A DNA stretch of 64,000 nucleotides from Candidatus Heimdallarchaeum aukensis (GTDB taxonomy: Archaea; Asgardarchaeota; Heimdallarchaeia; Heimdallarchaeales; Heimdallarchaeaceae). A model generated the notes under the pieces. The model was not told the DNA's origin. It was given only the letters and a program-made list of their open reading frames with translations, and did no database searches. The stretch is taken from contig CP084166.1 of the NCBI GenBank assembly GCA_021513695.1, positions 1,440,001-1,504,000 of the forward strand, given 5' to 3'. The position numbers and the translations under genes are program-made. Each line of letters opens with the position of its first letter. Positions within the stretch are counted from its first letter, which is position 1. This document shows, in pieces, positions 1 to 40,833 of this stretch.

Positions 1-54
1 GGCACCTGCCTGCGGAGCAGGGTATCGCAGGTTCAAGTCCTGCCTGGCCCGCCA
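1..54 (+). tRNA. tRNA-Arg (anticodon GCG), 3' portion only; the 5' part lies outside the window. CCA is genome-encoded.
   Basis: Reads as anticodon stem CCTGC/GCAGG with 7-nt loop CTGCGGA (U33, anticodon GCG, G37), a 5-nt variable loop GTATC, a T-arm GCAGG-TTCAAGT-CCTGC, acceptor 3' strand CTGGCCC, discriminator G and CCA ending at 54. Confidence 0.65.
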
Positions 55-15613: not shown

Positions 15614-16468
15614 GTGAAACAAATGCTAACAGAACAAGTTTGTTTAGAATGTATAAAGAAAACTGCTGATAGAGCAATTGATAGGCTAAAAAAAAATGAA
15701 ATTCGAAAGGAAAACATCCTAAACAGTATTAACCTATTTTTAGACAAAGTTGATAAAAAATATTCTCCAATTGAAATAAACTTTGAAGTCTTCAATTTAA
15801 TAAGCTCGCTTTCAGAAATATATGACCCCTTGAAAGAATTAAAAGAACAAGCAAATCTTAATGCGAATCAAGTTTTACCGTATATAAAAGAAGAAGAGAA
15901 GAAGTCAGAAGATATTTTATTTTCTCTTATTAAAGCTTCAGTCGCAGGAAATATTATAGATTTCTCTATTGATAAAGAAGTAAATTTACTAAGCACCCTA
16001 AAAAAAGTACTAAACAGTAGTTTCGCAATAAACGATTATGATCTATTCCTTGAAAAGTTGCAAATAACAAAAAAGGTTCAACTTTTGACAGATAACGCGG
16101 GTGAAATTATTTTTGATTTAGAATTATTATCTTTTCTGCAAAAAAGATTTAACAAAAAGATAGTGATAATAACAAAACGCTTTCCTTTCTCCAATGACAT
16201 TACACTAAAAGAAGTTAAGAGGTTAATTAAGAAAGTAGAATTAAAGGGAAAAATAATTAGCATTAATAATAAAAAGTATCGAAGTTACAAGAAAAAAATA
16301 AAGAAGAAATTAGACAGCAAGGCAGTAGTTATAAGTAAGGGACAAGGTAACTATGAACTTTTATCAGATGAAAAATTGAATATCTTTTTCCTTCTAATGG
16401 TTAAATGCCCAGTTATTGCCAAAAAAATTGTCTGTAATGTTGGAGATGTTGTCTTTTTTCAAAAATAA
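15614..16468 (+). CDS. DUF89/ARMT1-like metal-dependent phosphatase (damage-control phosphatase family)
   Basis: 'LLTDNAGEIIFDLELL' (DN.GE..FD motif) and C-terminal 'VISKGQGNYELL' (KGxGNyE), both conserved signatures of the DUF89 family. Confidence 0.6.
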   Translation: MKQMLTEQVCLECIKKTADRAIDRLKKNEIRKENILNSINLFLDKVDKKYSPIEINFEVFNLISSLSEIYDPLKELKEQANLNANQVLPYIKEEEKKSEDILFSLIKASVAGNIIDFSIDKEVNLLSTLKKVLNSSFAINDYDLFLEKLQITKKVQLLTDNAGEIIFDLELLSFLQKRFNKKIVIITKRFPFSNDITLKEVKRLIKKVELKGKIISINNKKYRSYKKKIKKKLDSKAVVISKGQGNYELLSDEKLNIFFLLMVKCPVIAKKIVCNVGDVVFFQK

Positions 16469-16525: not shown

Positions 16526-17458
16526 ATGGGATATCTATTTATTGTAAACCCTCACTCAAGAAATGATGAAGTCAAAAAGAGATGGCCAATAATAGAAGAT
16601 GAAATTAAAAAAAGAAACTTGGATTATCAAGTAGAATTTACAAAAGGAAGAAGACACGCAACTGAAATAACAAAGGAGCACATAAATGATTTTGACGTTT
16701 TTGTTTCTTGTGGAGGAGATGGAACAGTTAATGAGGTTGTGAATGGTCTAGCTGAAACAAATAAAGTTCTTGGAATGTTACCTTTAGGAAATGGAAATGA
16801 TTACGCTAACTTACTTCACGTTAGGGGTTCATATGTTCAGACCCTTAATATTCTTGAAGAGAACAAAATAGCAGAGTTAAGCCTGGGGGTAGCCACAGCA
16901 GATACAAAACACTATTTTGTTAATATAGCTGAAACAGGAATTACATCAATTATTGCTAAAGCATCATATACAGAATTAAAATGGATAAAAGGATTACCTA
17001 AATATTATATTCTCGGATTGAAGAAAATTTCTAGCTACAAATCTGTCCCAGCTTATATAAAAGTTGACGATTATGAAAGAAAAACTAAACTGATTCTTTG
17101 TGCTGTAGGTCTTGGTTACCGTTTTGGGGGAGGATTTAATGTTTTACCTGGAAATCAACCATATTTTGGTGATTTTCAAGTTTGTATTGCCGGAGATGTT
17201 CCTAAAATAAAATGGTATTGGATGATCAACAAAATAAAAAATGGAACACATGGAAATATTAAAGGTGTAGATATTATAAGAGGTAAGAAAATTGAAATAG
17301 AAACTGAAACACCATTACCTATAGAAGGAGAAGGAGAGGTGTTCAGTGAAAATTCAACCACAGCAAAATTTGAGTTATCACAATCAAAGTTAAAAATCAT
17401 TGTTGGAAAAGAATTCTTAAAAAATAAAATTGAATTCGAAACAAGAAATAAAAAATAA
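16526..17458 (+). CDS. DAGK_cat-family lipid kinase (YegS/diacylglycerol-kinase catalytic domain)
   Basis: 'LFIVNPHSR...FVSCGGDGTVNEVVNGL' matches the GGDGT ATP-binding motif of the DAGK_cat / NAD-kinase-like fold. Confidence 0.7.
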   Translation: MGYLFIVNPHSRNDEVKKRWPIIEDEIKKRNLDYQVEFTKGRRHATEITKEHINDFDVFVSCGGDGTVNEVVNGLAETNKVLGMLPLGNGNDYANLLHVRGSYVQTLNILEENKIAELSLGVATADTKHYFVNIAETGITSIIAKASYTELKWIKGLPKYYILGLKKISSYKSVPAYIKVDDYERKTKLILCAVGLGYRFGGGFNVLPGNQPYFGDFQVCIAGDVPKIKWYWMINKIKNGTHGNIKGVDIIRGKKIEIETETPLPIEGEGEVFSENSTTAKFELSQSKLKIIVGKEFLKNKIEFETRNKK

Positions 17459-17545: not shown

Positions 17546-17998
17546 ATGCACAAGGGGTTTATAACTAAAGAATTAACCAATGATGAAATAAGTCACAAAA
17601 AAATATTCATTAAAGTAGAAGACAGAATTTTGTTTCCTCATGGTATTTTTTTTATTGACTACCTAGACAATTCCTTTGGAGTTTATTTATCCAATAGAGG
17701 ATTTTTAGAAGGATTAGAATCATGGTTTGAAGAATTTCCTTCTTTAAAGAAGGGAGACATTGTTATTATCGCTAAACATAGCTCGGGCTTTTCTTTGAAC
17801 ACAACCTCACCAGTTGTTCAGTCTCAGATTTCTTTGATAATGGAAATGCAAAGAGTACAAATGTTGACTGAAGAGGATATTCTATGTCCAAACTGTTACT
17901 ACTCCTTAGAAAAAGAAAAACTCCCTGAAGATTCTCCTCACTTATTAAAATTAAAATGTGGGCGTTGTGGATTTATTCTTATAAAAACCAAAATTTAA
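17546..17998 (+). CDS. B3-like (DNA-binding pseudobarrel-like) domain protein with C-terminal C4 zinc ribbon, tandem paralog A
   Basis: 150 aa. 'MHKGFITKELTNDEISHKKIFI...RILFP...GFLEGLESWF...GDIVIIAK' (B3/EcoRII-N-like pattern F.K.LT...WF...GD.v.i), then 'CPNCYYSLEKE...CGRCGF'. Confidence 0.45.
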   Translation: MHKGFITKELTNDEISHKKIFIKVEDRILFPHGIFFIDYLDNSFGVYLSNRGFLEGLESWFEEFPSLKKGDIVIIAKHSSGFSLNTTSPVVQSQISLIMEMQRVQMLTEEDILCPNCYYSLEKEKLPEDSPHLLKLKCGRCGFILIKTKI

Positions 17999-18062: not shown

Positions 18063-18530
18063 ATGCATGTTGGATTTATCATCCGAGAATTAACCGAGGA
18101 AGAGATTAACCATAAGTGCTTATATGTTTTTGAAAAAGACAGAATACTTTTTCCTAATACAGGAGTTTTATTTTTTGTTGAATCCTATGAAGAGACATAT
18201 GGAGTAAGAATAGATCAAGATGGATTTCTTAGAGGATTAGAAACATGGTTTACAAAATATCCTCATAATCCTGGCGATACGATAATCATCGCAAAAACTT
18301 CTGAAAGTTTTTCTTTAAGTAGTTCTTCTGAGCTCATTCAACAAATTATTGGAGAATCATATGAAAAAGTTCGTGTTGATGAAATGGATGAGAAATCAGA
18401 AGCATGTCCAAATTGTCAATATCAACTAGAAATGGCAGCTAAAAAAGAAGAACGAATCATTTTCAAGTGTGCACGTTGTGGATTTACAATGGTTAGAAAA
18501 ATAAAAGATAATGAAAATGAAGAAGATTAA
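18063..18530 (+). CDS. B3-like domain protein with C-terminal C4 zinc ribbon, tandem paralog B
   Basis: 155 aa. 'MHVGFIIRELTEEEINHK...RILFP...GFLRGLETWF...GDTIIIAK...CPNCQYQLE...CARCGF'. Collinear with paralog A at roughly 45% identity. Confidence 0.45.
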   Translation: MHVGFIIRELTEEEINHKCLYVFEKDRILFPNTGVLFFVESYEETYGVRIDQDGFLRGLETWFTKYPHNPGDTIIIAKTSESFSLSSSSELIQQIIGESYEKVRVDEMDEKSEACPNCQYQLEMAAKKEERIIFKCARCGFTMVRKIKDNENEED

Positions 18531-18999: not shown

Positions 19000-19074
19000 T
19001 GGAGCCCCGGAGGGGAATTGAACCCCTGACCTGCGGATTACGAATCCGACGCTTTACCACTTAGCCACCGAGGC
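19000..19074 (-). tRNA. tRNA-Thr (anticodon CGU), CCA encoded
   Basis: Reverse complement reads GCCTCGG TG GCTA...TCGGA-TTCGTAA-TCCGC...AGGGG-TTCAATT-CCCCT-CCGGGGC-T-CCA. The 7-bp acceptor includes one G-U pair, the T-loop is TTCAATT, and the anticodon loop has U33, CGT and A37. Confidence 0.75.
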
Positions 19075-20579: not shown

Positions 20580-22931
20580 TTGGTTTTAATTAAAAGATTG
20601 ATTTTTTTCAAAAATCGTAAAAATGTTTATTATCTTTCATACGTAAATAAATTGGATAATATGGTAATACAAGAAGAGAGTAAGGACATCATAGAAGACT
20701 CACCTTTTAACCGCCTTGTTCTTGCAGAAATGGAGAGAGAACGACTTTACTCTACATTTGCTTTAGTTGACGAATTTAATGAAATTGCGTCTTCATGGTT
20801 AGAATTTTCAGATTTTTGTGCAAAATCATTATTTAATTTAACAAATTTATCATTTCTTCTCTATGAGCGGTATCTTGATGAATTTAATAGAGATAAGCAA
20901 CAAATAGAGATAAATTTTGAACGTAAAAGCTTCATTATTAAGAGAATAGAAAATCTGCAACAATTCCAAATGGAAGCAGCTATTTTAATGATTCTCTATG
21001 CAGATATTGTTAACACAGGCATTTTTGAGTCTAAACCTGCAGAAAATTTTTGTTATTTAAACATTGAAGGATATAAGGTTCTTGAGAAAATCTCTTCTAC
21101 ATATTTCGATTCTACTCATCCCAGGGCCTCATCAATTGAAGATATTATGGTAAAGTTATTTACAATAAGTCAAAAAGTCCAAATTGTGAAGATACTAAAT
21201 GATTCGCCAATTAAAAAAGCAAAAGAACCATCTTTTATTCAAGAACAACTTGAGTTGGAAAGATTATTAGCAAGTTTTGAGTTTGATTTTATTGCTAAGT
21301 TAATAGAAGAACTCGGAAAAAGATGGTGGTGGTATGACCCAATTGCAATACATTTTAGCTATGAAAGAGCAATGAAACACTTAGAAAAATCTCTTTCCCT
21401 TTTAGAACATAGTGAGGAAAATGTTCTACAAATTAAAGAAGAAATTAAAAATAAGATCTCAACAATAGATAAAATTTGGAGAAATAAAGCACTAATTGAT
21501 CACTTTTATAGAATCACATTAGAAGCAGCTAAAAAAGACAACTTTGTTGCAAGCATCGAATACCTAAACTTAATTTTAGGATTAATCGATGAAATCATTG
21601 AATATTTTCAAAACAATAATGAACATTTAGAAAGCGAAGAACAATTTTATGAAGAAATAGAAGAACGTAAAAACGATTTAAAAGTTTTTCATATTGTTGT
21701 CAGACTAGCTCTTTCTGTAGCTGAAATCATAAACAAACAAACCTCAATAGATAAAGCATTGTTAGAAAAAAAACTTACAGAAATAGAAAAAATATGCAAA
21801 GATTCTTCATTGTTTTCCAATATAAATTACTTCTCTGAAATTATTTATGTTTATCAAGGCTTTGTTCAAACAGCTAGAATTGGTATACTGAAGAAACAAA
21901 AAACAGAGAAAATCTTGAATAATGCAATAGCACAATTTGAATACTATATAGTCAAACTTGAGAATAGTTTAACAAAAATTGCTAATGATTTTTATAAGAA
22001 AGTCCATAAAGGGACGCTAAAAAGTACTGATTTTAAAAATTACTTAAAAAAGATTGAAGAGTTAAAGTACATCAGTTTCTTTTTACCTAACTTAGAACAA
22101 AAACTCAATCTTACACGAGAAATAGAGTCAATGGAATGTTATATTAAATCAATAGCTGCATTAAAACAGTCACAATCCCAAGAGTTGTCTGAAATTGAAA
22201 AACTCATCTATTATTCGAAAGCACACTATTTCTCAAATAAAGCTTTAGATTTGTCTCAAAGTAAGGAAAAAGCCATAATTCCTGACAATTGGCTTGAAGA
22301 GCAGTTCCTTAAAACTTTCACTGAAGGGAGAGAAGTCGAGTTAAAACTTTTTGAATTATCACGTCAATTTCTTTTTCTAAATAAAGTAATAGATGAAATT
22401 GCTTATTGCTTTGACATTTCAGAAAAAAAGAAAGAAAAAATTGAAAATTATGAGACAGTTCTTCAATTTCACTTTAGAAAATTTGAACTCTTTGAAATCA
22501 TTAACAAACAGATAGAAGAAAATTGTTTAGAATCCCTGAAATACAGAGAAATATCAAATGATATTGTAATTGTAGATAAAAACGTCAATTGGCAAATTAT
22601 TGAAGCTAAAAAAATATTGGCATCTTCAGCAGACAAATTAATCAAAGCACTTAAAAAATGCGCCCTTGGTTATGCAGCAGATAGAAGTAAAGACAACTAT
22701 AAAGCAGCTGTTTTATTTAATGAAGGTTATAAGCTGGTTCAGGAAGCATGTAATATTTTAGACCCACTAACTACATATGACAAACAATTTGCTGATTTGG
22801 CAAAAACAACTTACGAATTCAATTTGTTTCTAAAGGAACTTGAACGTTTGGAACTTGAGAAGAAAAAAATAAAAGAATTTCCTCTAGAAAAAGTGTTGTC
22901 TCTAGTTAAGAAAATAATTTTCTTTTCGTAA
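20580..22931 (+). CDS. Large (~755-783 aa) predicted all-alpha hypothetical protein
   Basis: Long uninterrupted ORF with an E/K-rich helical composition and no recognisable catalytic motif. The likely start is the ATG at 20661 ('MVIQEESKD'). Confidence 0.55.
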   Translation: MVLIKRLIFFKNRKNVYYLSYVNKLDNMVIQEESKDIIEDSPFNRLVLAEMERERLYSTFALVDEFNEIASSWLEFSDFCAKSLFNLTNLSFLLYERYLDEFNRDKQQIEINFERKSFIIKRIENLQQFQMEAAILMILYADIVNTGIFESKPAENFCYLNIEGYKVLEKISSTYFDSTHPRASSIEDIMVKLFTISQKVQIVKILNDSPIKKAKEPSFIQEQLELERLLASFEFDFIAKLIEELGKRWWWYDPIAIHFSYERAMKHLEKSLSLLEHSEENVLQIKEEIKNKISTIDKIWRNKALIDHFYRITLEAAKKDNFVASIEYLNLILGLIDEIIEYFQNNNEHLESEEQFYEEIEERKNDLKVFHIVVRLALSVAEIINKQTSIDKALLEKKLTEIEKICKDSSLFSNINYFSEIIYVYQGFVQTARIGILKKQKTEKILNNAIAQFEYYIVKLENSLTKIANDFYKKVHKGTLKSTDFKNYLKKIEELKYISFFLPNLEQKLNLTREIESMECYIKSIAALKQSQSQELSEIEKLIYYSKAHYFSNKALDLSQSKEKAIIPDNWLEEQFLKTFTEGREVELKLFELSRQFLFLNKVIDEIAYCFDISEKKKEKIENYETVLQFHFRKFELFEIINKQIEENCLESLKYREISNDIVIVDKNVNWQIIEAKKILASSADKLIKALKKCALGYAADRSKDNYKAAVLFNEGYKLVQEACNILDPLTTYDKQFADLAKTTYEFNLFLKELERLELEKKKIKEFPLEKVLSLVKKIIFFS

Positions 22932-23824: not shown

Positions 23825-23837
23825 ATTAGTGAGAAAT

Positions 23838-24182
23838 ATGACTCAAGTTCAAACAGAAACAAGATGCGCAAATTGTGATAGGGTAATTAAGCTAACTCCA
23901 GAAATTTTAGAATCAGGTTGTCCAGATTGTGGTTCGTTTAAATTTATAACCAAAAGGATTTTAACAGATTTGGAGAAACAACAAAAAGAAGTAAAGGTCT
24001 TGATAGATAAAGAAATGAGAGAAGAAGATATTACAAAAGATATATCTTCTATAAGACTGAGTACTGAAGGGACATTTGAAATTGATTTAGAGAAACTGCT
24101 CGAAGAAGTAACTGAAAACAAGCCTATAATAACAAGAAATAAGGACGGAACCTATCATGTCAAGTTCCCTGAAAAAAAATAA
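23838..24182 (+). CDS. Small zinc-ribbon protein (about 115 aa)
   Basis: 'CANCDRVIKLTPEILESGCPDCGSF' has the same C..C....L...GCP.CG pattern as the C-terminus of the upstream gene. Followed by a charged helical tail. Confidence 0.45.
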   Translation: MTQVQTETRCANCDRVIKLTPEILESGCPDCGSFKFITKRILTDLEKQQKEVKVLIDKEMREEDITKDISSIRLSTEGTFEIDLEKLLEEVTENKPIITRNKDGTYHVKFPEKK

Positions 24183-24972: not shown

Positions 24973-25042
24973 AAAAAGTAAAAGAAGAAATGTGATTTGT
25001 TTTTCTGAAAGATTTATTACATCCTTCTTTTCTTTTCATTTA

Positions 25043-25984
25043 ATGAAAGAAAAAGGTAAAATTGTTTTTTTAGGTGGTGGTACAGGAACACCTAAACTTA
25101 TACAAGGGATTAGGAGAATTATTAATGAAGAGAATATCACTGTAATTACCAATACAGCAGATGATATAACTCTTTATGGTTTATATATATCTCCAGATGT
25201 AGATACATATCTTTACCTTTTTTCAAATTTACTTGACACTAAAAAATTCTGGGGTATAGAAGGAGATTCTTATTATACTTATTCATTTCTAAAGAAATTC
25301 GACAAAAATGCTTGGTTCACTTTGGGAGATAAAGATTTAGCTATCCATCTCTTTAGAACACAAAAACTTCAAGAAGGGAAGAACCTTTCAGAAATAACAA
25401 CTATCTTAGCCAATCGTTTAAATATAAAAGCAAAAATTTTACCATGTACAGATAATCATATAGAAACAAGAATTGTTACAAAAAATGGCCATGACATTCA
25501 TTTTCAAGAGTTTTGGGTACGCGAAAAAGCAAACTTATCTATTAAAGAAATATATGTTAAGGGAATAGAAAACGCGATTATTCCTGATGATATTTTTAGC
25601 GAAATTGAGGAAGCAGATAAAATTATTTTAGGTCCTAGCAATCCAATAACAAGTATCGGTCCGATAATTTCGATAAAAAAAATTAGACAGTCATTAAAGA
25701 AAAATAAAGAGAAATGCATAGCTATTAGTCCTATTGTTGGAGATAGGGCAATAAGTGGACCTACATGTCAATTTCTTGCAACTAAAAACAAAAATTGCTC
25801 AATAAAAGATATAATTTCCCTTTATGAAGATTTTATTACATGCTTTTTTATTGATGAGTCTGATAAGAACATAGAAGAACAAATTAAAAATATCTATCCA
25901 AATTTAGATATTCGAAATGAAAATATAGTAATGAAAGATATTAGTATCTCACAGAATTTAGCAAAAACATTGCTTAAGGTGTAA
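25043..25984 (+). CDS. cofD: 2-phospho-L-lactate transferase CofD-like (CofD/UPF0052 family)
   Basis: 'KIVFLGGGTGTPKLIQGIRRII...ITVITNTADD' matches the TGTPKL motif of CofD. Start taken at the ATG at 25043 ('MKEKGKIVFLGGG'). Confidence 0.7.
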   Translation: MKEKGKIVFLGGGTGTPKLIQGIRRIINEENITVITNTADDITLYGLYISPDVDTYLYLFSNLLDTKKFWGIEGDSYYTYSFLKKFDKNAWFTLGDKDLAIHLFRTQKLQEGKNLSEITTILANRLNIKAKILPCTDNHIETRIVTKNGHDIHFQEFWVREKANLSIKEIYVKGIENAIIPDDIFSEIEEADKIILGPSNPITSIGPIISIKKIRQSLKKNKEKCIAISPIVGDRAISGPTCQFLATKNKNCSIKDIISLYEDFITCFFIDESDKNIEEQIKNIYPNLDIRNENIVMKDISISQNLAKTLLKV

Positions 25985-25986
25985 AA

Positions 25987-26775
25987 ATGGAAATCTCTCC
26001 ACCTATTATTCAATCTGCATTAGCGGGATATACAACACCATCATTCATTCAATCAATATTAGATAATGGTGCGGGTATGGCTACATTTGGAGGTTATTCT
26101 TTAGATAAATTAACAAATGAGGGATCAACTGAAATAATTAAGAGAAATAGAAAAGAGATTTTACTCCCACGAGATGAAACTGAATTTCAAAAGTGGTGCA
26201 ATCTAAATTTAAATGTAAAAAAAAGTTCAGATAAACAATTAATTGCAATTAATTTACGAATATCTAAAATAGACCAAGAAACTTTAAGAAAAATAAATTT
26301 TTTATCAAACTTTATTGATATTATAGAATTAAATGCTCATTGTAGACAGAAAGAAATTGTAGAAAGGAGAGGAGGAGAGTATTTACTCAAAGATATTAAT
26401 CATTTAGACTACATACTAGAAAAAATCAGAAAAACTTCTCCAAATGATAAAAAGATCGGGATAAAAATCAGAGGTTACATTGTAAAAGACCAACAAAAAC
26501 TAGTGAATGTTCTTGAATCAAGATCTGTTGACTATTTACATATTGACTGCATGGAACCTGGAAAACCCTATGCAAACTTAAAAATACTAAAATCTTTTTC
26601 TGAATTAACAGATATCACTTTAATTGGAAATAACTCTGTTAGAAATGTAAAAGATGTTCAACAAATGATTGATGCAGGAGCTTCTGCTGTTTCAATCGCA
26701 AGACCTTTAATTACTAACCCTAGTTCTATCAAAAGGTTAATATCAGAATGCAAAAACAAAGGAATTCTAAAATGA
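25987..26775 (+). CDS. Dus-like (tRNA-dihydrouridine-synthase-like) FMN-dependent TIM-barrel protein
   Basis: 'ALAGYTTPSFIQ' (cf. Dus 'lAPMagvTd..fR'), 'IIELNAHCRQKEIVERRGGEYLL' (cf. 'IDlNmGCP..kv.k.g.G.aLl', Cys retained), 'IGIKIRGY', 'DYLHIDCM' and 'GASAVSIARPLITNP'. Start lies 3 bp after the cofD stop, and the stop overlaps the cofC start (ATGA). Confidence 0.45.
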   Translation: MEISPPIIQSALAGYTTPSFIQSILDNGAGMATFGGYSLDKLTNEGSTEIIKRNRKEILLPRDETEFQKWCNLNLNVKKSSDKQLIAINLRISKIDQETLRKINFLSNFIDIIELNAHCRQKEIVERRGGEYLLKDINHLDYILEKIRKTSPNDKKIGIKIRGYIVKDQQKLVNVLESRSVDYLHIDCMEPGKPYANLKILKSFSELTDITLIGNNSVRNVKDVQQMIDAGASAVSIARPLITNPSSIKRLISECKNKGILK

Positions 26776-27377
26776 CCAAGACAGCATTCCTCATTCCATA
26801 TAAAGGAACAAATAAAGCAAAAACCAGATTAAGAAGAAAACTTAATGGAGAAGTTGTAGATAAACTCCTTTTTCGTCTCTTCGGAGCGGTAATTCAAGAA
26901 CTATCAGAAATGAAAATAGAAAAGTCTATATACATCTTAACAAAAAACTCTAATCTTCTTCTTAATGAGAATTGTATAAAAATAGTTGACAAAAAAGATG
27001 ACTTTAATGAAGCTATTGTTGAAGCTGTTAAAGATCTAAGTGAAGAAAATATCATAATCATCATGGCTGATCTTTACAAAATTAAAAAAAAAGAGATTAG
27101 ACGAATTATTAAATTAAGAAAAAAGTATTCTGTGGTTATTGCACCCTCAGAAAATGATGGAACTAGCATTTTTGCATTTTCTAAAAAATTACTTTCTGAA
27201 ATAGAATTCTGTTTTGGAAATAATTCTTCATTAATATTTGAAAAACAATTTAAGCAAAAAGGAATAAATTATTTTAAATTACGCTATAAGAATGTTTTTA
27301 AGGATATAGATAACCTTGAAGATATTCTTAGTATAAAAAAATTAGCAAAAGAATTAAACTTATTCAACAAAAATTAG
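26772..27377 (+). CDS. cofC: CofC-like guanylyltransferase (MobA-like nucleotidyltransferase fold)
   Basis: 'TAFLIPYKGTNKAKTRLRRKL' matches CofC 'aiIPvK.f..AKTRL'. ATG at 26772-26774, overlapping the stop of the Dus-like gene. Confidence 0.6.
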   Translation: MTKTAFLIPYKGTNKAKTRLRRKLNGEVVDKLLFRLFGAVIQELSEMKIEKSIYILTKNSNLLLNENCIKIVDKKDDFNEAIVEAVKDLSEENIIIIMADLYKIKKKEIRRIIKLRKKYSVVIAPSENDGTSIFAFSKKLLSEIEFCFGNNSSLIFEKQFKQKGINYFKLRYKNVFKDIDNLEDILSIKKLAKELNLFNKN

Positions 27378-28635: not shown

Positions 28636-29250
28636 TTGTCTTGGAAAACTTGGTTAAAAAGTAAACCCAAACATATTAAACTTGGATTTTATGGGGAAGT
28701 AAATGCCGGGAAGACAACGTTAGCAAATGTTATGGGGATGGATTGGGCAGGACAAGAAGTGGGAAAAGTTTCTGAAATCCCTCACGAAACTAGAGAAATT
28801 GCAAAACTAGAAAAAGTTGATTTTAATGTGGATGGGACAAAAATAGATTTAACTTTAATAGATATGCCAGGTATAGCTACAACAGTTGACCCAAAATCAT
28901 TTGTTAATTATGGATTAAGTGCTGGAGAAGCTATGCAAAGAGCTAAAGAAGCAACAAGAGGAATAGTAGAAGCTATCAAGTATTTAGAGCAAGTTGATGT
29001 TGCACTTGTAGTATTAGATTCTACAAAAACACCATTTGATCAAGTTAATTTTACTATTCTTGGGAACTTAGAACATCAGAAGAAGCCATTTATTATTGTC
29101 CCAAACAAAATAGATTGCCCTGAATCAGATGTAAAAACAGTGCAAGAAGCCTTTGGTGATTATGAAGTTGTACCTATCTCTGCCTTGAAGAAGGAAGGTA
29201 TTGACAAACTCTATGATAGTATTGCAAAATTAGCTAAAAAGGTGAAATAA
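28636..29250 (+). CDS. Small standalone GTPase (Era/EngB-like MMR_HSR1-type G domain)
   Basis: G1 'GEVNAGKTTL', G3 'DMPG', G4 'NKID'. Not Ras-like (no DTAGQE). TTG start per the ORF track. Confidence 0.6.
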   Translation: MSWKTWLKSKPKHIKLGFYGEVNAGKTTLANVMGMDWAGQEVGKVSEIPHETREIAKLEKVDFNVDGTKIDLTLIDMPGIATTVDPKSFVNYGLSAGEAMQRAKEATRGIVEAIKYLEQVDVALVVLDSTKTPFDQVNFTILGNLEHQKKPFIIVPNKIDCPESDVKTVQEAFGDYEVVPISALKKEGIDKLYDSIAKLAKKVK

Positions 29251-29251
29251 A

Positions 29252-29605
29252 ATGTCTTACAGTGTTGATTTTATTCCAGAAGATGAAACGGGTAGGTTTT
29301 CATTAGTTGAAAAAACCAGATATATTCTCTCTCAAGTCATGCGAAATAAAATTCTTATTTTAGAAAATGCACTCACTCCAGAAGAAGAATTATACTTAAT
29401 CGAGAAAACTATGAATAAGATAGATTATAGTAACTTCGTTGGAATCAAGCTTTTCTCATTTGATTCAGGAGAAGAAAACAGATTCTCAAAAATATTCGGC
29501 AAGTCATCTAAAAAACGGTCTACTTACACTATTGTGGCTCCAAATGATGCAGTTTCTGTTGTAAAAGATGAAAGAGGGATTTTATCAATTAGAATTAATG
29601 TTTAG
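29252..29605 (+). CDS. Hypothetical 117-aa protein translationally coupled to the upstream GTPase
   Basis: Starts 1 bp after the GTPase stop. No motif recognised. Confidence 0.45.
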   Translation: MSYSVDFIPEDETGRFSLVEKTRYILSQVMRNKILILENALTPEEELYLIEKTMNKIDYSNFVGIKLFSFDSGEENRFSKIFGKSSKKRSTYTIVAPNDAVSVVKDERGILSIRINV

Positions 29606-30100
29606 TAATGATTCAATTTTCTCTTTCATTTTTTTGTATGATTCCTCAATATTCCCATCAGTATTAATTACAGTTACTTTTTCTGGAGAGTATAATTCTA
29701 GCATATCAGTTAAAACTACTTCCATAATTTCTGCTTCTACGTTTTCATCGATTTTTATTTGTTTATAGTCCCTTTCTTTTAAACGTGAGATTAGATTTTT
29801 AATTGAACACTGTAAAACAAAACAATGAAAAAGAAAATCTTTTGGTATTTCGACCAAATGACTGTCTAGCACTAACGGAAATTTACTTGTATTAGATTCT
29901 ATTAGCTTTATGAGTTCTTTTTCCAATTTTTCTTCGTCGACAATTAAAGTATCTAGTTTTTTGTCATAAGTTTCATACAATTCTTTTTCGCGAACGAGAT
30001 TTGTAATATTAACGACAGGATAACCATCACTTTCTAGTTTTTTCGCTAGAGTTGTTTTTCCTGTTCCAGGAGTACCAGTAATAATTATTGCCTTTTTCAA
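29585..30100 (-). CDS. Adenylate kinase isoenzyme 6 / Fap7-like nucleoside-triphosphatase
   Basis: 'KKAIIITGTPGTGKTTLAKKLESDGYPVVNITNLVRE' is the archaeal AK6/Fap7 signature. 171 aa. Confidence 0.75.
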   Translation of the reverse strand: MKKAIIITGTPGTGKTTLAKKLESDGYPVVNITNLVREKELYETYDKKLDTLIVDEEKLEKELIKLIESNTSKFPLVLDSHLVEIPKDFLFHCFVLQCSIKNLISRLKERDYKQIKIDENVEAEIMEVVLTDMLELYSPEKVTVINTDGNIEESYKKMKEKIESLLNINSN

Positions 30101-30109
30101 TTTTTTCGC

Positions 30110-30823
30110 CTACTTTAGCATCTCTTCTGATATTTTTGATTCTTTTTTGAGAGCTTTTAATAGTTTTATCTTTTCAAGCTCACCAGTTCTGAATTTTTTA
30201 ATGTTATCAACTTGTCTTGTCATCATAAGAAACGCAATTCCGTACAATATTAAGGCTATTTCCAGTCTACTCATAGAAATCCAAGGCATCAACCACATTT
30301 CTGGTAAAAATAGTGCAAAGGTTGCAACTAATAAAGTAGTAGCTATATACGCAAGCGCAGCATAACCTACAAATATAATAACTATTGGCCATAAAATCAA
30401 CCATACAGCGATCAATGCAGGGTTTACCAATATCATTGTTCCAACAATAACTGTAATTCCTCTTCCGCCATGAGAACCGAGAAATAGTGGCCAATTATGT
30501 CCTACAACTGCAGCTATACCTGCAACTGTAAGAAGAAATTTACCATCAGTTAATCCAACAAAGTTAACAGGATGCTTTATTAAGATATAAGGGATGAAAA
30601 TAGCTAGAAAGGAACGAGAAACATCCAAAAGACCAGCGAATAAAGCCCATTTTAATGAACCTGTAACACGGTATACATTTCTCCCACCTACATTTTTTGA
30701 ACCAATCTTACGTAAATCCTTACCAGTTTTTAATTTTACAATAATCCAGCTAAATGGAATAGAGCCAACAATATAGGCTATAAAAAAAACAAAGACATAA
30801 TCAACTAGATAGCCCATAATCAT
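30110..30823 (-). CDS. plsY: PlsY-family acyl-phosphate:glycerol-3-phosphate acyltransferase-like membrane protein
   Basis: 'AYIVGSIPFSWII...GSKNVGGRNVYRVTG...LDVSRSFLAI' and 'GHNWPLFLGSHGGRGITVIVG' align with bacterial PlsY ('GSGNPGATNVLR', '[21 protein letters not shown]'). Multiple TM helices. Confidence 0.7.
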   Translation of the reverse strand: MIMGYLVDYVFVFFIAYIVGSIPFSWIIVKLKTGKDLRKIGSKNVGGRNVYRVTGSLKWALFAGLLDVSRSFLAIFIPYILIKHPVNFVGLTDGKFLLTVAGIAAVVGHNWPLFLGSHGGRGITVIVGTMILVNPALIAVWLILWPIVIIFVGYAALAYIATTLLVATFALFLPEMWLMPWISMSRLEIALILYGIAFLMMTRQVDNIKKFRTGELEKIKLLKALKKESKISEEMLK

Positions 30824-30912
30824 TTGTTTTATTTTAGATACTTAAGGTTGTTTATTCTCAAAAGCAATCAAATTTTTAAATTAAAGTTTTTTTATCATTC
30901 TTGTTGATTTTA

Positions 30913-32298
30913 ATGAACATCCAAGAGCATATTTTCAGAGCTTATGATATCAGAGGTCTATTTAATAAAGATCTCACTTCTGGAGTGATGTACAAAATTG
31001 GATTAGCTGCAGGAACTTATACTAAAAAGATCCTTGAAGAACATGAAATTATTGTAGGTAATGATATCAGATACTCTAGCATTCCTTTAGCTTTTGCTTT
31101 TATTTCTGGTGTATTGTCTTCCGGAGTAGATGTCGTCTATGTAGGAACTACGGCTTTCGGACAAACTTTATTCAGAGGATGGGAAAAGAAAAAAGGTCCT
31201 ATTGCTTTTATCACTGCTAGTCATCTTCCTCCTGAATGGAATGGAATCAAATTTTACTATTCTGATGGAGTAGGATTCCCAGAAGAAGAACTAAAAAAAA
31301 TAAGAGACTTTTGTTTAAATAATAATGTTGAACTCGCAAGTTGGGATAAAATTGGAAAACTTTCCCAAGAAGATGCTAAAGAAAACTACTTGGAATTTTT
31401 CAAAAAGAATTTCCAATTTGAAAACAAAGTAAAAGTTGCAGTGGATTGTGGAGGAGCTAGTACAACTCTTTCTGCTCCAGAAATTTTTCAATCAATTGGA
31501 ATTAACTTTGTTCCTGTTTTTTGTGAAACTGATCCTAGTTTTTCAGTAAGGCCTTCCGACCCTAAACCTAAAAATCTTGCTGAGTTGAAAAAAACAGTTA
31601 TAGAACAAAACTGTGACTTTGGAGTGGCTTTTGACGGGGACGGAGATAGAGCTGTTATTGTTGATAATAAGGGAAACGTACTCTCTGCGGATCAAACAGG
31701 TATAATAATCGCAAAATATGGGTTGAAAGAGAAAAAAGGAGTTATAATCGCAAATGTTGAATGTTCAAAAGCAGTAGATGAACAATTGTCTCCTCTTGGA
31801 TATAAAATAAAAAGGATTCCAGTAGGGCATACTTTTTTAACCCTTGAAGCGAAAAAAGAGAATTCACCCCTAGGGATAGAATCATCTGGACACTTAATAT
31901 TACCAGAATATTTCTTATTTGATGATGCTCTCGTAATTCCTCTAAAAGTGGCAGAAATACTCACAAAATCAGATAAGAGCTTGAATGAACTTGTGCAAGA
32001 AATTCCTATTTATCCAATTAAGAAGGAAGAAGTAGAGTGCGAAGACAAAATTAAGTTCGAAGTGATGAAGATTTTCTCAGAAGAGGTTAAGAAAGAATTT
32101 TCAAATGTGTCAACATTAGATGGTGTTAGAATTGAATTAGAAAAAGGTTGGGTGCTTATAAGACCGTCTAATACTAGTCCTATAATCAGACTAACAGCTG
32201 AAGCCGATACAGAAGAAGTCTTGAATGAGATCACCAGTAGTTTTAAAGAAAGGCTAAGCAAAACAATAGAAAAATACATGGAGAAGGCGAGAGCTTGA
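30913..32298 (+). CDS. Phosphoglucomutase/phosphomannomutase (alpha-D-phosphohexomutase family)
   Basis: Active-site Ser loop 'TASHLPPEWNGIKF', Mg loop 'GVAFDGDGDRAVIVD', sugar loop 'GIESSGH'. Confidence 0.85.
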   Translation: MNIQEHIFRAYDIRGLFNKDLTSGVMYKIGLAAGTYTKKILEEHEIIVGNDIRYSSIPLAFAFISGVLSSGVDVVYVGTTAFGQTLFRGWEKKKGPIAFITASHLPPEWNGIKFYYSDGVGFPEEELKKIRDFCLNNNVELASWDKIGKLSQEDAKENYLEFFKKNFQFENKVKVAVDCGGASTTLSAPEIFQSIGINFVPVFCETDPSFSVRPSDPKPKNLAELKKTVIEQNCDFGVAFDGDGDRAVIVDNKGNVLSADQTGIIIAKYGLKEKKGVIIANVECSKAVDEQLSPLGYKIKRIPVGHTFLTLEAKKENSPLGIESSGHLILPEYFLFDDALVIPLKVAEILTKSDKSLNELVQEIPIYPIKKEEVECEDKIKFEVMKIFSEEVKKEFSNVSTLDGVRIELEKGWVLIRPSNTSPIIRLTAEADTEEVLNEITSSFKERLSKTIEKYMEKARA

Positions 32299-39483: not shown

Positions 39484-39579
39484 TAAAAACTCTCTCCAAC
39501 TTTTCAGATGGACATCTTTTCTCCACTATATTTAAAAACAACTTGGTATATGTATCATAAACACATTGGAGAGATAAAT

Positions 39580-40833
39580 ATGGGAACAATTTATGATGGT
39601 TTAGAGGAAATCGGTCCTCATTTTGAACTTAGTGAAACTCATAAAATGGTTAGGCAAAGTGTAAGAGAGTTTGCTGAAAAAGAGATTGCCCCTTATGTAA
39701 AAGAGTGGGATCAAGCACATGAATTTCATAAGCCAATACTAAAGAAAATGGCTGAACAAGGAATTCTGGGTATTTCCTTACCAGTAAAGTATGGAGGAGG
39801 AGGACTAGATTATATATCACTAGCTATTGCTTGTGAAGAACTTGAAAGAATTGACACGGCAATGAGAGTAATTTTGTCTGTCCATAATGGATTGTGCTCT
39901 TTGACCATTTTCCAGTGGGGAAATAAAGAGCAAAAAGAAAAATACTTGCCTAAACTTGCAACGGGAGAAGTCATTGGAACTTTCGGATTGACAGAACCAG
40001 CTGCTGGAAGTGACCCTGCAGGTATAAAATCTCGATGCAGAAAAGAAGGAGACGAATGGGTTATAAGTGGAGAAAAAATGTGGATATCCTACACAAATTC
40101 ATCAGATGTTTTTCTAATTTTTGCATATGAGGAAGACGTCAAACATAAAGGTATGAGAGCTTTTATCGTTGAAAGAGATTTTGGAGGATTAACTACTGGT
40201 AATATCGAACACAAGATGGGAGTCCGTGCTGGAGAAACAGGATGGATACATCTTGATGAAGTTAGAGTTCCTGCCGAAAATCTATTAGGCGAAGCTGAAG
40301 AAGGATTTAAGATTGCAATGTCTGCATTAGATTGGGGAAGATATACTGTAGGAGCTGGAGCTGTAGGTGCTGCTAAAGCCTCACTTGAAGCTTCTGTTGC
40401 TTATGCAAATGAGAGAGAAACATTTGGAAAGAAAATTGGACAGCACCAATTCATTCAAGGAATGATTGCTGATATGGTTGCTGATATCGAAGCAGCTGAA
40501 TTATTAATTTGGAAAGCTGGCTGGGTGAAAAATCAAGGTAAAATTAATACAAGAGAAACAGCCCTATCGAAGTGGTATGCTACTAACGCCGCAGTTAGAT
40601 GTGCAGATAGAGCAATACAAATTCATGGAGCATATGGATTCTGTGATGATTACCCTGTAGCTCGTTATTATAGAAACGTAAGAGGAGCAACAATCTATGA
40701 AGGAAGCAATGAAATACAGAAAATAATTCAAGCTAGATATGCTCTTGGATACTTCAAAGACAAACCTTTACGCTGCATGCCTCCTAAGTATGATCCTGAA
40801 GAATGGATGAATCCAGATACTGATAAATACTAA
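39580..40833 (+). CDS. Acyl-CoA dehydrogenase (short/medium-chain type) with ~35-aa C-terminal extension
   Basis: 'GLTEPAAGSDPAGIKS', 'GEKMWISYT', and catalytic-base region 'IYEGSNEIQKIIQARYALG'. Start taken at the ATG at 39580 ('MGTIYDGLEE'). Confidence 0.85.
   Translation: MGTIYDGLEEIGPHFELSETHKMVRQSVREFAEKEIAPYVKEWDQAHEFHKPILKKMAEQGILGISLPVKYGGGGLDYISLAIACEELERIDTAMRVILSVHNGLCSLTIFQWGNKEQKEKYLPKLATGEVIGTFGLTEPAAGSDPAGIKSRCRKEGDEWVISGEKMWISYTNSSDVFLIFAYEEDVKHKGMRAFIVERDFGGLTTGNIEHKMGVRAGETGWIHLDEVRVPAENLLGEAEEGFKIAMSALDWGRYTVGAGAVGAAKASLEASVAYANERETFGKKIGQHQFIQGMIADMVADIEAAELLIWKAGWVKNQGKINTRETALSKWYATNAAVRCADRAIQIHGAYGFCDDYPVARYYRNVRGATIYEGSNEIQKIIQARYALGYFKDKPLRCMPPKYDPEEWMNPDTDKY

What the first reader, a model, noticed from the sequence alone, without database searches (positions are those of the whole stretch)
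30110..30823. Bacterial-type PlsY-family acyltransferase encoded in an archaeal genome
Seen: clear PlsY signatures ('GSKNVGGRNVYR', 'GHNWPLFLGSHGGRG') in a multi-TM protein. Established: PlsY transfers acyl groups from acyl-phosphate to glycerol-3-phosphate in bacterial ester-lipid synthesis; archaea normally make isoprenoid ether lipids on glycerol-1-phosphate. Inference: potential capacity for fatty-acyl ester lipid, or mixed-membrane, biosynthesis, a feature discussed for Asgard-type archaea in connection with the 'lipid divide'. Alternatively, the protein has been adapted to a different substrate.
Basis: partly seen in the sequence, partly recalled or inferred. Interest (0 to 1): 0.55.

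Follow-up and report, generated by a model that had tools for sequence, protein, structure and literature searches.

The report
Divergent PlsY-like acyltransferase in Heimdallarchaeum
The gene is a real PlsY-family membrane protein in a Heimdall-group Asgard archaeon, but three substrate-recognition residues are rewired and its known pathway partners are missing, so it is weak evidence for bacterial-type membrane lipids.

Summary
Window 30110-30823 (-) encodes a 237-aa protein with both quoted motifs, a full-length Pfam PF02660 match (115.9 bits, cut-off 24.1) and a confident PlsY fold. The window is about 97% identical to Ca. Heimdallarchaeum endolithica PR6.

PlsY homologues in Asgard archaea, including Heimdall, are already published. 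What I did not find described is that this protein belongs to a clade seen only in MAGs labelled Heimdallarchaeota, where taxonomy is known. That clade fails the NCBIfam PlsY equivalog cut-off (100-125 bits against 137.2; bacterial controls 173-186). It carries a fixed signature, T41R/S142Y/H177Q, in 62/62 members and 0/314 other PlsYs. In Aquifex PlsY these residues bind the acyl carbonyl and the glycerol 2-OH, and H177Q leaves 1% activity. The phosphate clamp, phosphate hole and oxyanion Asn are kept. dN/dS is 0.10-0.16.

Most genomes sampled carry two paralogues. Published surveys found no PlsC in the genus and no PlsX in archaea; this window holds neither.

Best reading: a specificity-shifted, acyl-phosphate-type acyltransferase, most plausibly using sn-glycerol-1-phosphate. 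No biochemistry exists. The canonical ester-lipid reading is only weakly supported.

The parts
30110..30823 (-). CDS of the PlsY-like protein (237 aa), group g1 of the Heimdall R41/Y142/Q177 clade
   Evidence: ORF; PF02660 at 115.9 bits; TIGR00023 at 114.1, below the 137.2 cut-off; PlsY fold; dN/dS 0.10 against the PR6 orthologue
30668..30703 (-). Motif 1, GSKNVGGRNVYR (residues 41-52). Keeps S42 (=S35), N44 (=N37, oxyanion) and R52 (=R45). R48 replaces T41, the acyl-carbonyl ligand.
   Evidence: Coordinates; residue mapping; residue roles from Li 2017
30452..30502 (-). Motif 2 / phosphate hole, GHNWPLFLGSHGGRGIT (residues 108-124). Keeps H109 (=H92), G119/G120/G122 and R121 (=K104, a conservative change).
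   Evidence: Li 2017 reports K104R at 25% activity
30347..30349 (-). Y159, replacing S142 (a G3P 2-OH ligand); invariant in the clade
30176..30217 (-). Motif 3, RQVDNIKKFRTGEL (residues 203-216). Q204 replaces H177 (2-OH ligand). N207 (=N180, phosphate clamp) is kept. K210 replaces R183, and L216 (Ala in most clade members) replaces E189; both lie on the phosphate-release path.
   Evidence: Li 2017
30113..30184 (-). Clade-specific basic, amphipathic C-terminal tail GELEKIKLLKALKKESKISEEMLK. It ends in the conserved ...S-[DE]-E-x-[LM]-K-COOH and is absent from the aligned bacterial PlsYs.
   Evidence: E234, L236 and K237 are invariant in A1; alignment A2; tail statistics (the last two residues are LK in 54/62 clade members, with no such pattern in 314 others)
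30824..30912 (.). 89-nt AT-rich divergent intergenic region shared with the GlmM-like gene; presumed bidirectional promoter region (inference only)
   Evidence: Sequence; a divergent neighbour at a median gap of 88 bp in 27/27 g1 loci
30913..32298 (+). Divergently transcribed phosphohexomutase (PGM/PMM family, closest to archaeal GlmM); the invariant neighbour of g1 genes
   Evidence: Pfam PGM_PMM I-IV; TIGR03990 Arch_GlmM at 397.5 bits, below the 439 cut-off; adjacent in 27/27 g1 loci
29585..30100 (-). Small P-loop kinase (AAA_18; 'putative kinase' PRK03839), 9 nt downstream on the same strand. It is syntenic but not always directly adjacent in relatives.
   Evidence: Pfam; NCBIfam; present near the g1 gene in 26/27 loci; separated from it by two opposite-strand genes in YT1_002

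Best explanation
The gene encodes a functional integral-membrane enzyme of the PlsY superfamily. It belongs to a clade that, where taxonomy is known, occurs only in MAGs labelled Heimdallarchaeota, and that has undergone a specificity shift. The parts of bacterial PlsY that carry out the chemistry are intact: the 'phosphate hole' that holds the phosphate of the acyl-phosphate donor (H92 and the GG[K/R]G loop), the oxyanion-stabilising Asn37, and the 'phosphate clamp' for a phospho-alcohol acceptor (S35, R45, K/R104, N180). I therefore infer that it still transfers an acyl group from an acyl-phosphate-type donor to the hydroxyl of a small phosphorylated alcohol, by substrate-assisted catalysis. 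The side chains that read the rest of the substrates have been replaced. T41 (donor carbonyl) is now Arg. S142 and H177 (the acceptor's 2-OH) are now Tyr and Gln. R183 and E189 on the phosphate-exit path are now Lys and Ala. I infer that the acceptor is presented differently from G3P in bacterial PlsY. The most plausible physiological acceptor is sn-glycerol-1-phosphate, the archaeal backbone, which would give a mono-acyl-G1P. DHAP is a secondary candidate, because Arg, Tyr and Gln can all donate hydrogen bonds to a C2 carbonyl. Because PlsC and PlsX are reported absent, the product is probably a minor or specialised acyl-glycerophosphate rather than the entry point to bulk bacterial-type phospholipids. 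Shown: family membership, fold, the clade signature, which residues are kept and which are replaced, purifying selection, the duplication and the synteny. Inferred: retained acyltransferase chemistry (about 0.6), a shifted acceptor (about 0.6), G1P as that acceptor (about 0.35), DHAP (about 0.1).
For: Family and fold. Distinct clade: in 1.84 billion representatives, only two 50%-identity clusters (373 and 254 bits) and two more distant ones (about 161 bits) stand above the general PlsY continuum (138 bits or less). NJ bootstrap is 94% for the whole R41 clade, 100% for g1 and 100% for g2. All taxonomically labelled members are Heimdallarchaeota MAGs. Signature: R41/Y142/Q177 occurs in 62/62 clade members and 0/314 other PlsY-family sequences. 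An unbiased scan finds only six class-discriminating columns (41, 140, 142, 177, 183, 189). Five of them are among the 16 residues probed by Li 2017 (p = 1.2e-5; p = 1.2e-3 excluding the two columns used to define the classes). Residue roles and mutant activities (T41A 4.8%, H177Q 1.0%, K104R 25%, E189A 137%): PMC5700162. Retained core: S35, N42, R45, H92, G102, G103, G105 and N180 are conserved in both classes, and N37 is kept in g1/g2. Equivalog test with controls: clade members score 100-125 bits and canonical PlsYs 173-186, against a 137.2 cut-off. The gene is functional: dN/dS is 0.10-0.16. Two paralogues are kept side by side in most genomes sampled, including the closed PR6 genome. G1P plausibility: bacterial PlsYs already accept G1P as well as G3P (PMC13400652). 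Ca. Heimdallarchaeum encodes a G1PDH-type protein (Wu 2022 supplement). No GpsA was found in Asgard genomes (Coleman 2019).
Against: There is no biochemical or lipidomic evidence for any member of this clade. No acyl-phosphate source has been identified: no PlsX in archaea according to Coleman 2019, and no PlsX, DegV, Dak2 or PTA_PTB in this window. I could not scan the whole genome. Canonical PlsY already uses G1P with H177 and S142 intact, so a switch to G1P does not obviously require these substitutions. Single-mutant data from Aquifex PlsY need not carry over to a co-adapted triple change, so the clade could still use G3P. Genomic context gives no lipid-pathway support.
Confidence: 0.55

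Rival explanations
1. Orthodox PlsY. It is an acyl-phosphate:sn-glycerol-3-phosphate acyltransferase that starts bacterial-type ester phospholipid synthesis, giving the archaeon mixed or bacterial-like membranes.
For: Full-length PF02660 match and PlsY fold. The phosphate clamp, phosphate hole and N37 are retained. K104R and E189A are tolerated or beneficial in Aquifex PlsY. The literature treats Asgard PlsY homologues as potential ester-lipid enzymes.
Against: H177Q leaves 1% and T41A 4.8% activity in Aquifex PlsY, and both positions, plus S142, are replaced in every clade member. The protein scores below the TIGR00023 equivalog cut-off, while controls pass. PlsC is absent from both Ca. Heimdallarchaeum genomes. 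No archaeal PlsX or PlsB and no Asgard GpsA were found. No pathway partner lies in the window or in the conserved neighbourhoods.
Confidence: 0.2
2. Lipid-acceptor variant. The enzyme acylates a membrane-embedded phospholipid intermediate, such as geranylgeranylglyceryl phosphate or a lyso-lipid, at its free hydroxyl and so makes ether/ester hybrid lipids. The two paralogues (g1, g2) would take over distinct acylation steps in the absence of PlsC.
For: Two conserved paralogues occur per genome in a genus reported to lack PlsC. The remodelled residues are the ones that position the glycerol C2 hydroxyl. The clade has its own insertions and a C-terminal amphipathic tail. Hybrid lipids have been proposed for Asgard archaea.
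Against: This is purely inferential. The phosphate clamp in PlsY opens to the cytoplasm for a soluble acceptor. No second hydrophobic groove has been shown. The g1 and g2 signatures are identical at all functional positions, which does not suggest different regiochemistry.
Confidence: 0.1
3. Not an acyltransferase any more. The scaffold has been recruited for another role, such as binding or transporting a phosphate ester, a phosphatase or phosphotransferase activity, or a structural role linked to the neighbouring hexosamine and sugar-phosphate genes.
For: 'Indispensable' residues are replaced. The GlmM-like phosphohexomutase is an invariant divergent neighbour in 27/27 g1 loci, next to the FBP aldolase and FBPase genes. 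No acyl-phosphate source is known.
Against: The whole catalytic core for acyl-phosphate chemistry, including oxyanion N37 and H92, stays invariant under strong purifying selection. The sugar-phosphate neighbourhood is absent from the g2, g3 and g4 relatives that carry the same core, so it looks like inherited local synteny rather than functional coupling.
Confidence: 0.1

Closest known systems
Bacterial PlsY (acyl-phosphate:glycerol-3-phosphate acyltransferase; Pfam PF02660, NCBIfam TIGR00023; Aquifex aeolicus structures 5XJ5-5XJ8)
   Same: Same Pfam family over its full length and the same PlsY fold. Same phosphate clamp (S35, R45, K/R104, N180), phosphate hole (H92, GGxG loop) and oxyanion Asn37.
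   Different: It scores below the equivalog cut-off. It has fixed T41R, S142Y, H177Q, R183K and E189A replacements. It is about 30-40 residues longer, with loop insertions and a conserved basic C-terminal tail ending in LK. No PlsX or PlsC partners are known, and two paralogues occur per genome.
'PlsY homologues' previously reported in Asgard archaea (Lokiarchaeum GC14_75, Heimdallarchaeota LC_2, Thorarchaeota SMTZ1-83; Coleman 2019, Manoharan 2019; Villanueva 2017 as cited by them)
   Same: Same gene family in the same superphylum. It is almost certainly the same kind of gene as the one catalogued for Heimdall genomes and in Wu 2022's ester-lipid gene panel.
   Different: The papers I read treat them as PlsY orthologues. 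They do not mention active-site divergence, the duplication into two paralogues or the conserved neighbourhood. I could not retrieve Loki or Thor PlsY sequences to see whether they share the R/Y/Q signature.
PlsB/PlsC-type (HX4D) glycerolipid acyltransferases and eukaryotic GPAT/DHAPAT
   Same: An analogous reaction class, acylation of a glycerol-phosphate or DHAP backbone. Relevant only as a functional analogy for the G1P and DHAP hypotheses.
   Different: Unrelated fold and motif. They use acyl-CoA or acyl-ACP donors and a His-Asp dyad. No sequence or structural similarity was detected here.

Membership tests
PlsY superfamily (Pfam PF02660 G3P_acyltransf) | Full-length match above the Pfam gathering threshold | tested here: met
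   115.9 bits against 24.1; profile positions 1-163 of 164
PlsY superfamily (Pfam PF02660 G3P_acyltransf) | PlsY fold as in 5XJ5 | tested here: met
   AF2 model pLDDT 86.6. Foldseek finds only 5xj5-5xj8 (E 2e-8, TM 0.77-0.79 on the target).
Orthodox PlsY (NCBIfam TIGR00023 equivalog: glycerol-3-phosphate 1-O-acyltransferase) | Score at or above the curated equivalog cut-off (137.2 bits) | tested here: not met
   The window protein scores 114.1. Other clade members score 100.2-124.5, and four canonical bacterial controls score 172.9-185.7.
Orthodox PlsY | Acceptor phosphate clamp S35/R45/K104/N180 | tested here: met
   S42, R52, R121 (K to R) and N207
Orthodox PlsY | Donor phosphate hole (H92 and the G102-G103-K104-G105 loop) and oxyanion Asn37 | tested here: met
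   H109, G119-G120-R121-G122 and N44
Orthodox PlsY | Thr/Ser41 hydroxyl that binds the acyl-phosphate carbonyl | tested here: not met
   Arg48, as in 62/62 clade members. T is found in 99% of the 286 canonical sequences.
Orthodox PlsY | His177 (with Ser/Ala142) positioning the G3P 2-OH; reported as indispensable | tested here: not met
   Gln204 and Tyr159. Q177 and Y142 occur in 0/314 non-clade sequences. H177Q leaves 1% activity.
Orthodox PlsY | Pathway partners: PlsX or FakAB as acyl-phosphate source, PlsC for the second acylation, and a G3P source (GpsA/GlpK) | tested here: not met
   None lies in the 64-kb window or in the conserved neighbourhoods. From the literature: PlsC is absent from both Ca. 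Heimdallarchaeum genomes, and no archaeal PlsX and no Asgard GpsA were found. I could not scan the whole genome with these tools.
Orthodox PlsY | Acyl-phosphate-dependent G3P acyltransferase activity | not testable with these tools
   Needs expression and a FakAB-coupled assay, as in PMC13400652.
Heimdall R41/Y142/Q177 PlsY-like clade (defined here) | The R41/Y142/Q177 triple, K183, a non-acidic residue at 189, and a basic C-terminal tail ending in [LM]K | tested here: met
   R48, Y159, Q204, K210, L216 and a tail ending ...SEEMLK. The protein falls in g1 with 100% NJ bootstrap.

The most novel reading that the evidence does not exclude
The two PlsY-like paralogues of Heimdallarchaeaceae form a route, independent of PlsX and PlsC, that esterifies fatty acyl groups onto an archaeal-type backbone: G1P, DHAP or a mono-ether intermediate. 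If so, close archaeal relatives of eukaryotes would make heterochiral or ether/ester hybrid glycerolipids with a remodelled PlsY active site.
Probability: 0.15. Interest if true: 0.85.

Novelty: new variant of a known kind. Interest (0 to 1): 0.45.

Why it matters
Asgard 'plsY' genes are often cited as hints that the archaeal ancestors of eukaryotes could make bacterial-type ester lipids, which bears on the lipid divide problem in eukaryogenesis. For the Heimdall lineage, this analysis shows that the gene is not an orthodox PlsY. The acyl-phosphate and phosphate-binding core is conserved, but the residues that read the glycerol C2 hydroxyl and the acyl carbonyl are replaced throughout the clade, and the gene is duplicated. 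Gene-presence tables therefore overstate the evidence for canonical ester-lipid synthesis. The analysis also yields a specific, inexpensive experiment: the published FakAB-coupled assay with G1P, G3P and DHAP, plus R48T/Y159S/Q204H back-mutants. If the enzyme proves to be G1P- or DHAP-specific, it would be the first archaeal-adapted member of the family and a concrete biochemical link across the lipid divide. If it is inactive on glycerophosphates, a commonly cited argument loses support.

Tried and rejected
1. P0105 (R41 but H177 kept) is sister to the clade in the tree. I spent the last homology search on it to see whether it marks another Asgard lineage. It is an orphan from a 2-kb contig with only bacterial relatives at about 30% identity, so it gave no taxonomy.

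2. My first definition of 'group 3' was wrong. The tree showed that P0249 belongs to g1 and that L039, L053 and L056 form a separate g4 with P0102. I recomputed the bootstraps with corrected groups. An earlier bootstrap script timed out.

3. I tested whether the sugar-phosphate neighbourhood (GlmM-like mutase, FBP aldolase/phosphatase, FBPase, aldolase) is functionally coupled to the gene. It is invariant for g1 (27/27) but absent from g2, g3 and g4. I therefore treat it as inherited synteny and only weak support for a sugar-phosphate or DHAP link.

4. I considered the small P-loop kinase 9 nt downstream as an acyl-phosphate-forming kinase and rejected it. It is a generic AAA_18 'putative kinase', and in YT1_002 two opposite-strand genes separate it from the PlsY-like gene.

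5. The YegS/BmrU lipid kinase (16526-17458) and the PAP2 phosphatase (51519-52094) are real lipid-phosphate enzymes, but they lie 13-21 kb away. No homologue of the kinase turned up in the 27 g1 loci, which reach only 10 kb either side. It does lie about 6.6 kb from the gene in one other genome.

6. Wu 2022's supplements contain no explicit PlsY, PlsX or acyltransferase table; the only relevant hit was a G1PDH note.

7. Literature searches for 'archaeal PlsY' and for Heimdallarchaeia lipidomics found nothing relevant.

8. Model coordinates are not exposed, so I could not measure distances between residues in the model.

9. Pseudogene or chance ORF: rejected on dN/dS of 0.10-0.16 and conservation across more than 50 genomes.

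10. Contamination from a bacterial contig: rejected. The gene sits in conserved archaeal synteny on a closed genome.
Full report
OBSERVATION. Window 30110-30823 (minus strand) is an ATG-initiated ORF of 237 aa. It contains 'GSKNVGGRNVYR' (residues 41-52; 30668-30703) and 'GHNWPLFLGSHGGRG' (from residue 108; within 30452-30502). It matches Pfam PF02660 (G3P_acyltransf) over essentially the whole profile (1-163 of 164; E 2.5e-33; 115.9 bits against a gathering score of 24.1). Its closest solved relative is Aquifex aeolicus PlsY, 5xj5 (E 1.6e-19). An AlphaFold2 model built on 43 homologues is confident (pLDDT 86.6, pTM 0.84). In the PDB it resembles only the four PlsY structures (E about 2e-8, TM 0.77-0.79 normalised on the target; the next hit has E 0.48).

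ORGANISM. The window has about 31% G+C. The same protein sequence is found on JGI and Logan metagenome contigs. A 97%-identical copy lies on the closed genome of Ca. Heimdallarchaeum endolithica PR6 (CP084167.1, around 1.58 Mb); nucleotide identity within the gene is 96.7%.

ALREADY KNOWN. The presence of PlsY homologues in Asgard archaea is not new. Coleman et al. 2019 list PlsY in Lokiarchaeum GC14_75, Heimdallarchaeota LC_2 and Thorarchaeota SMTZ1-83. They infer horizontal acquisition from Bacteria, found no archaeal PlsX or PlsB and no Asgard GpsA, and consider a role in membrane phospholipid synthesis unlikely (PMC6431249). Manoharan et al. 2019 report PlsY in Loki and Thor genomes (PMC6737245). 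A 2022 review says the function of these homologues 'remains to be elucidated' (PMC9385802). Wu et al. 2022, who closed the Heimdallarchaeum genomes, show a panel of ester-lipid genes and state that both Ca. Heimdallarchaeum species lack the 1-acyl-glycerol-3-phosphate acyltransferase PlsC (PMC8813620). Rieche et al. 2026 show that B. subtilis and E. coli PlsY use G1P about as well as G3P. They point out that G3P is therefore not strictly needed for the Asgard homologues (PMC13400652).

NOT AN ORTHODOX PLSY. Against NCBIfam the protein's best hit is the PlsY equivalog TIGR00023, but at 114.1 bits, below the curated cut-off of 137.2. I ran controls in a single call. Four canonical bacterial PlsYs scored 172.9-185.7 bits. 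Five other members of the archaeal clade scored 100.2-124.5 bits: the second PR6 paralogue, P0041, P0050, P0100 and P0102.

I then mapped the protein and 98 homologues onto Aquifex PlsY numbering. The roles of the residues come from the substrate-bound crystal structures and mutagenesis of Li et al. 2017 (PMC5700162).
- Kept: the acceptor 'phosphate clamp' (S35, R45, K104 as K or R, N180); the donor 'phosphate hole' (H92 and the G102-G103-x-G105 loop); and Asn37, proposed to stabilise the oxyanion.
- Replaced: T41, whose hydroxyl binds the acyl-phosphate carbonyl, is Arg. S142 and H177, the two side chains that bind the G3P 2-OH, are Tyr and Gln. E189 is replaced (Ala in most members, Leu here) and R183 is Lys; both lie on the phosphate-release path.

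In Aquifex PlsY, T41A retains 4.8% activity and H177Q retains 1.0%. No substitution tested could replace H177.

To avoid cherry-picking, I scanned every alignment column for positions that separate 62 clade members from 286 canonical PlsYs. Only six columns qualify: 41, 140, 142, 177, 183 and 189. Five of them are among the 16 residues Li et al. probed. The hypergeometric p is 1.2e-5, or 1.2e-3 after removing the two columns I had used to define 'canonical'. The R41/Y142/Q177 triple is present in 62/62 clade members and 0/314 other family members in my sample. Neither Q177 nor Y142 occurs once outside the clade. The clade also shares a basic, amphipathic C-terminal tail of about 21 residues ending in ...S-[DE]-E-x-[LM]-K-COOH. 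The last two residues are LK in 54/62 members, and the aligned bacterial PlsYs lack this tail.

EXTENT AND HISTORY OF THE CLADE. A profile search of 1.84 billion representative proteins found 18,762 family members. Only four representatives stand above the general continuum: P0035 (group g1, 373 bits), P0099 (g2, 254 bits), and P0100 and P0101 (g3, about 161 bits). Everything else scores 138 bits or less.

A scan of one genome per GTDB species returned the clade only from MAGs titled Heimdallarchaeota or 'uncultured archaeon'. The single exception is a 4-kb contig labelled Thorarchaeota that nests inside g1. That scan used peptide patterns taken from the clade itself, so it cannot exclude relatives with different motifs.

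Most genomes carry both g1 and g2. Examples are PR6 (L005 and L047, about 1 Mb apart), AB_125, YT1_002 and CSMAG_1088. A fourth group, g4, occurs in other Heimdall-labelled MAGs and has R41 but G142, L/M177 and D180.

A neighbour-joining tree (92 sequences, 220 columns, 100 bootstraps) gives g1 100%, g2 100%, g3 93%, g4 100%, g1+g2 81%, and 94% for the whole R41 clade including the orphan P0105. This is a distance tree, so the deeper topology should be treated as provisional.

The gene is under strong purifying selection. dN/dS is 0.10 against PR6 and 0.15-0.16 against AB_125 and YT1_002, although synonymous sites are near saturation for the distant pairs. The simplest history is one ancient acquisition from Bacteria, active-site remodelling, and then duplication within Heimdallarchaeia.

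GENOMIC CONTEXT. The g1 gene has an invariant divergent neighbour, a PGM/PMM-family phosphohexomutase closest to archaeal GlmM (TIGR03990, 397.5 bits, just under its 439 cut-off). It is adjacent in 27/27 loci with a median gap of 88 bp, and 89 nt here. Beyond it lie a CxxCxxCC protein, FBP aldolase/phosphatase, an FBPase and a class II aldolase. On the other side are a small P-loop kinase, OapB, a GTPase, an M24 peptidase, and cofC, a Dus-like gene and cofD.

This block of about 15 kb is syntenic across genomes whose PlsY-like proteins are only about 50% identical. None of it accompanies g2, g3 or g4. g2 often sits beside an Eis-like GNAT+SCP2 protein (18/28 loci) and an aminotransferase (19/28 loci). 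In PR6 it sits beside a biotin/lipoate ligase and an acyl-CoA carboxyltransferase. g3 and g4 sit by an EamA transporter, an AlaX-like protein, PAS-thioredoxin histidine kinases and an aldo-keto reductase. I therefore read the sugar-phosphate neighbourhood as inherited gene order rather than an operon-like functional link.

Across the window I found no PlsX, PlsC, GpsA, DegV, Dak2 or PTA_PTB domain. That rests on Pfam annotation covering most, not all, of its 64 ORFs of 80 aa or more. The lipid-related genes present are all distant from the PlsY-like gene: a YegS/BmrU-family lipid kinase (16526-17458; TIGR00147 at 132.7 against a 118.65 cut-off), a PAP2 phosphatase (51519-52094), a PIG-L-family deacetylase (58-762) and an acyl-CoA dehydrogenase (39508-40833).

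MECHANISM. The following are shown:
- family and fold;
- retention of every element that in Aquifex PlsY binds the two phosphates and stabilises the tetrahedral intermediate;
- clade-wide replacement of the side chains that contact the acyl carbonyl and the glycerol C2 hydroxyl;
- purifying selection and duplication.

The following are inferred. Because the chemistry-bearing core is intact and conserved, the protein most likely still catalyses substrate-assisted acyl transfer from an acyl-phosphate-type donor to a phosphorylated alcohol. Because the discriminating changes concentrate on the C2-OH and carbonyl contacts and on the phosphate exit path, acceptor presentation has probably changed.

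The organism should have G1P, since Wu 2022's supplement reports a G1PDH-type gene, and Asgard genomes lack GpsA. So sn-glycerol-1-phosphate is the most plausible acceptor. Its C2 hydroxyl would point away from the H177/S142 side if the phosphate and the attacking hydroxyl stay in place. DHAP is a secondary candidate, because Arg, Tyr and Gln can all donate hydrogen bonds to a C2 carbonyl, and the g1 gene borders genes that make DHAP. That context argument is weak, as explained above.

The main caveat is that canonical PlsY already accepts G1P with H177 and S142 intact, so the substitutions are not obviously needed for G1P use. No acyl-phosphate source is known in these genomes. With PlsC reported absent, the product is unlikely to feed bulk diacyl-phospholipid synthesis, unless the second paralogue takes over that step. 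That last possibility is the speculative 'novel case'.

VERDICT. The gene's presence in Heimdall archaea is already known. In the literature I could search, I did not find the clade-wide active-site signature, the failure of the equivalog test, the g1/g2 duplication or the conserved neighbourhood described. That search covers open-access papers and bioRxiv only, so I cannot exclude prior description elsewhere. I classify the finding as a new variant of a known kind, of moderate interest. It tempers a much-cited genomic argument about the lipid divide and defines a straightforward biochemical test.

Noticed in passing
L047:9962-10690 (Ca. H. endolithica PR6, CP084167.1, about 564 kb): The second PlsY-like paralogue (g2, about 32% identical to the window protein, same R/Y/Q signature) lies in PR6 next to a biotin/lipoate protein ligase (10731-11474) and an acyl-CoA carboxyltransferase (11588-13162). 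That pairing could relate to malonyl- or methylmalonyl-CoA metabolism. The adjacency is not seen in the other g2 loci examined (L088-L091).
   Followed up: partly
L091:6682-7866 and 18 of 28 g2 loci: An Eis-like GNAT acyltransferase with a C-terminal SCP2 (lipid-carrier-like) domain recurs as a neighbour of the g2 paralogue, usually divergently oriented. A possible functional partner, not tested.
   Followed up: partly
L039:2471-3157, L053:6147-6827, L056:8386-9075: A fourth PlsY-like group (g4) occurs in other Heimdall-labelled MAGs. It has R41 but G142, L/M177 and D180, so the phosphate-clamp Asn is lost. It is flanked by a conserved Pfam-less protein of about 553-558 aa and by PAS-thioredoxin histidine kinases.
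   Followed up: partly
window 16526-17458 (+) and 51519-52094 (-): A YegS/Rv2252/BmrU-family lipid kinase (DAGK_cat + YegS_C, above the TIGR00147 cut-off) and a PAP2-superfamily lipid phosphatase are encoded in the window. Their lipid substrates in an archaeon are unknown. The lipid kinase lies about 6.6 kb from the g1 gene in another genome (L087).
   Followed up: partly
window 24992-25984, 25987-26775, 26748-27377, 45068-45625: A cofD gene (above the F420_cofD equivalog cut-off), a Dus/DHO_dh-like gene and a cofC-like gene form a cluster. An F420H2-dependent quinone reductase-like gene lies nearby. This points to cofactor F420 biosynthesis and use in this Heimdall archaeon.
   Followed up: no
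window 17546-17998 (+) and 18063-18530 (+): Two tandem paralogous ORFs of about 150 aa with similar N-termini (MHKGFITKELTNDEISHK / MHVGFIIRELTEEEINHK). The first had no Pfam match; the second was not scanned.
   Followed up: no
window 13605-14534 (-) and 14678-15568 (+): A divergent pair of P-loop kinase-like genes; the second has an ATP-cone domain. From memory they resemble 2-phosphoglycerate kinase, but I did not test this. An ARMT1-like damage-control phosphatase follows at 15614-16468.
   Followed up: no
window 20580-22931 (+), 4771-5856 (-), 6445-7311 (+), 7374-8873 (+), 56770-57717 (-): Several sizeable ORFs (288-783 aa) have no Pfam match at E <= 1e-4. The 783-aa one had homologues in only 3 of 27 related loci, though it lies near the edge of their 10-kb flanks.
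   Followed up: no
L015 (JBHLQZ010000182.1, 4 kb): A contig from a MAG labelled Thorarchaeota (QM1B.68) carries a g1-type gene that nests among Heimdall sequences next to YT1_029. This is probably a binning or labelling error rather than a real Thor occurrence.
   Followed up: partly
window 30113-30184 (-): The clade-specific C-terminal tail (basic amphipathic stretch, then an acidic S-[DE]-E patch and a terminal [LM]-K) is conserved across g1-g4 and absent from the aligned bacterial PlsYs. It could be a membrane-surface helix or a partner-docking motif. It is modelled at lower confidence (pLDDT about 60-64).
   Followed up: partly
window 1-51 (+) and 19000-19074 (-): A tRNA truncated at its 5' end sits at the window edge, and a tRNA-Thr(CGT) lies at 19000-19074. 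The GTPase (28636-29250), OapB (29252-29605) and OapC-like (23829-24182) genes are part of the conserved block.
   Followed up: no
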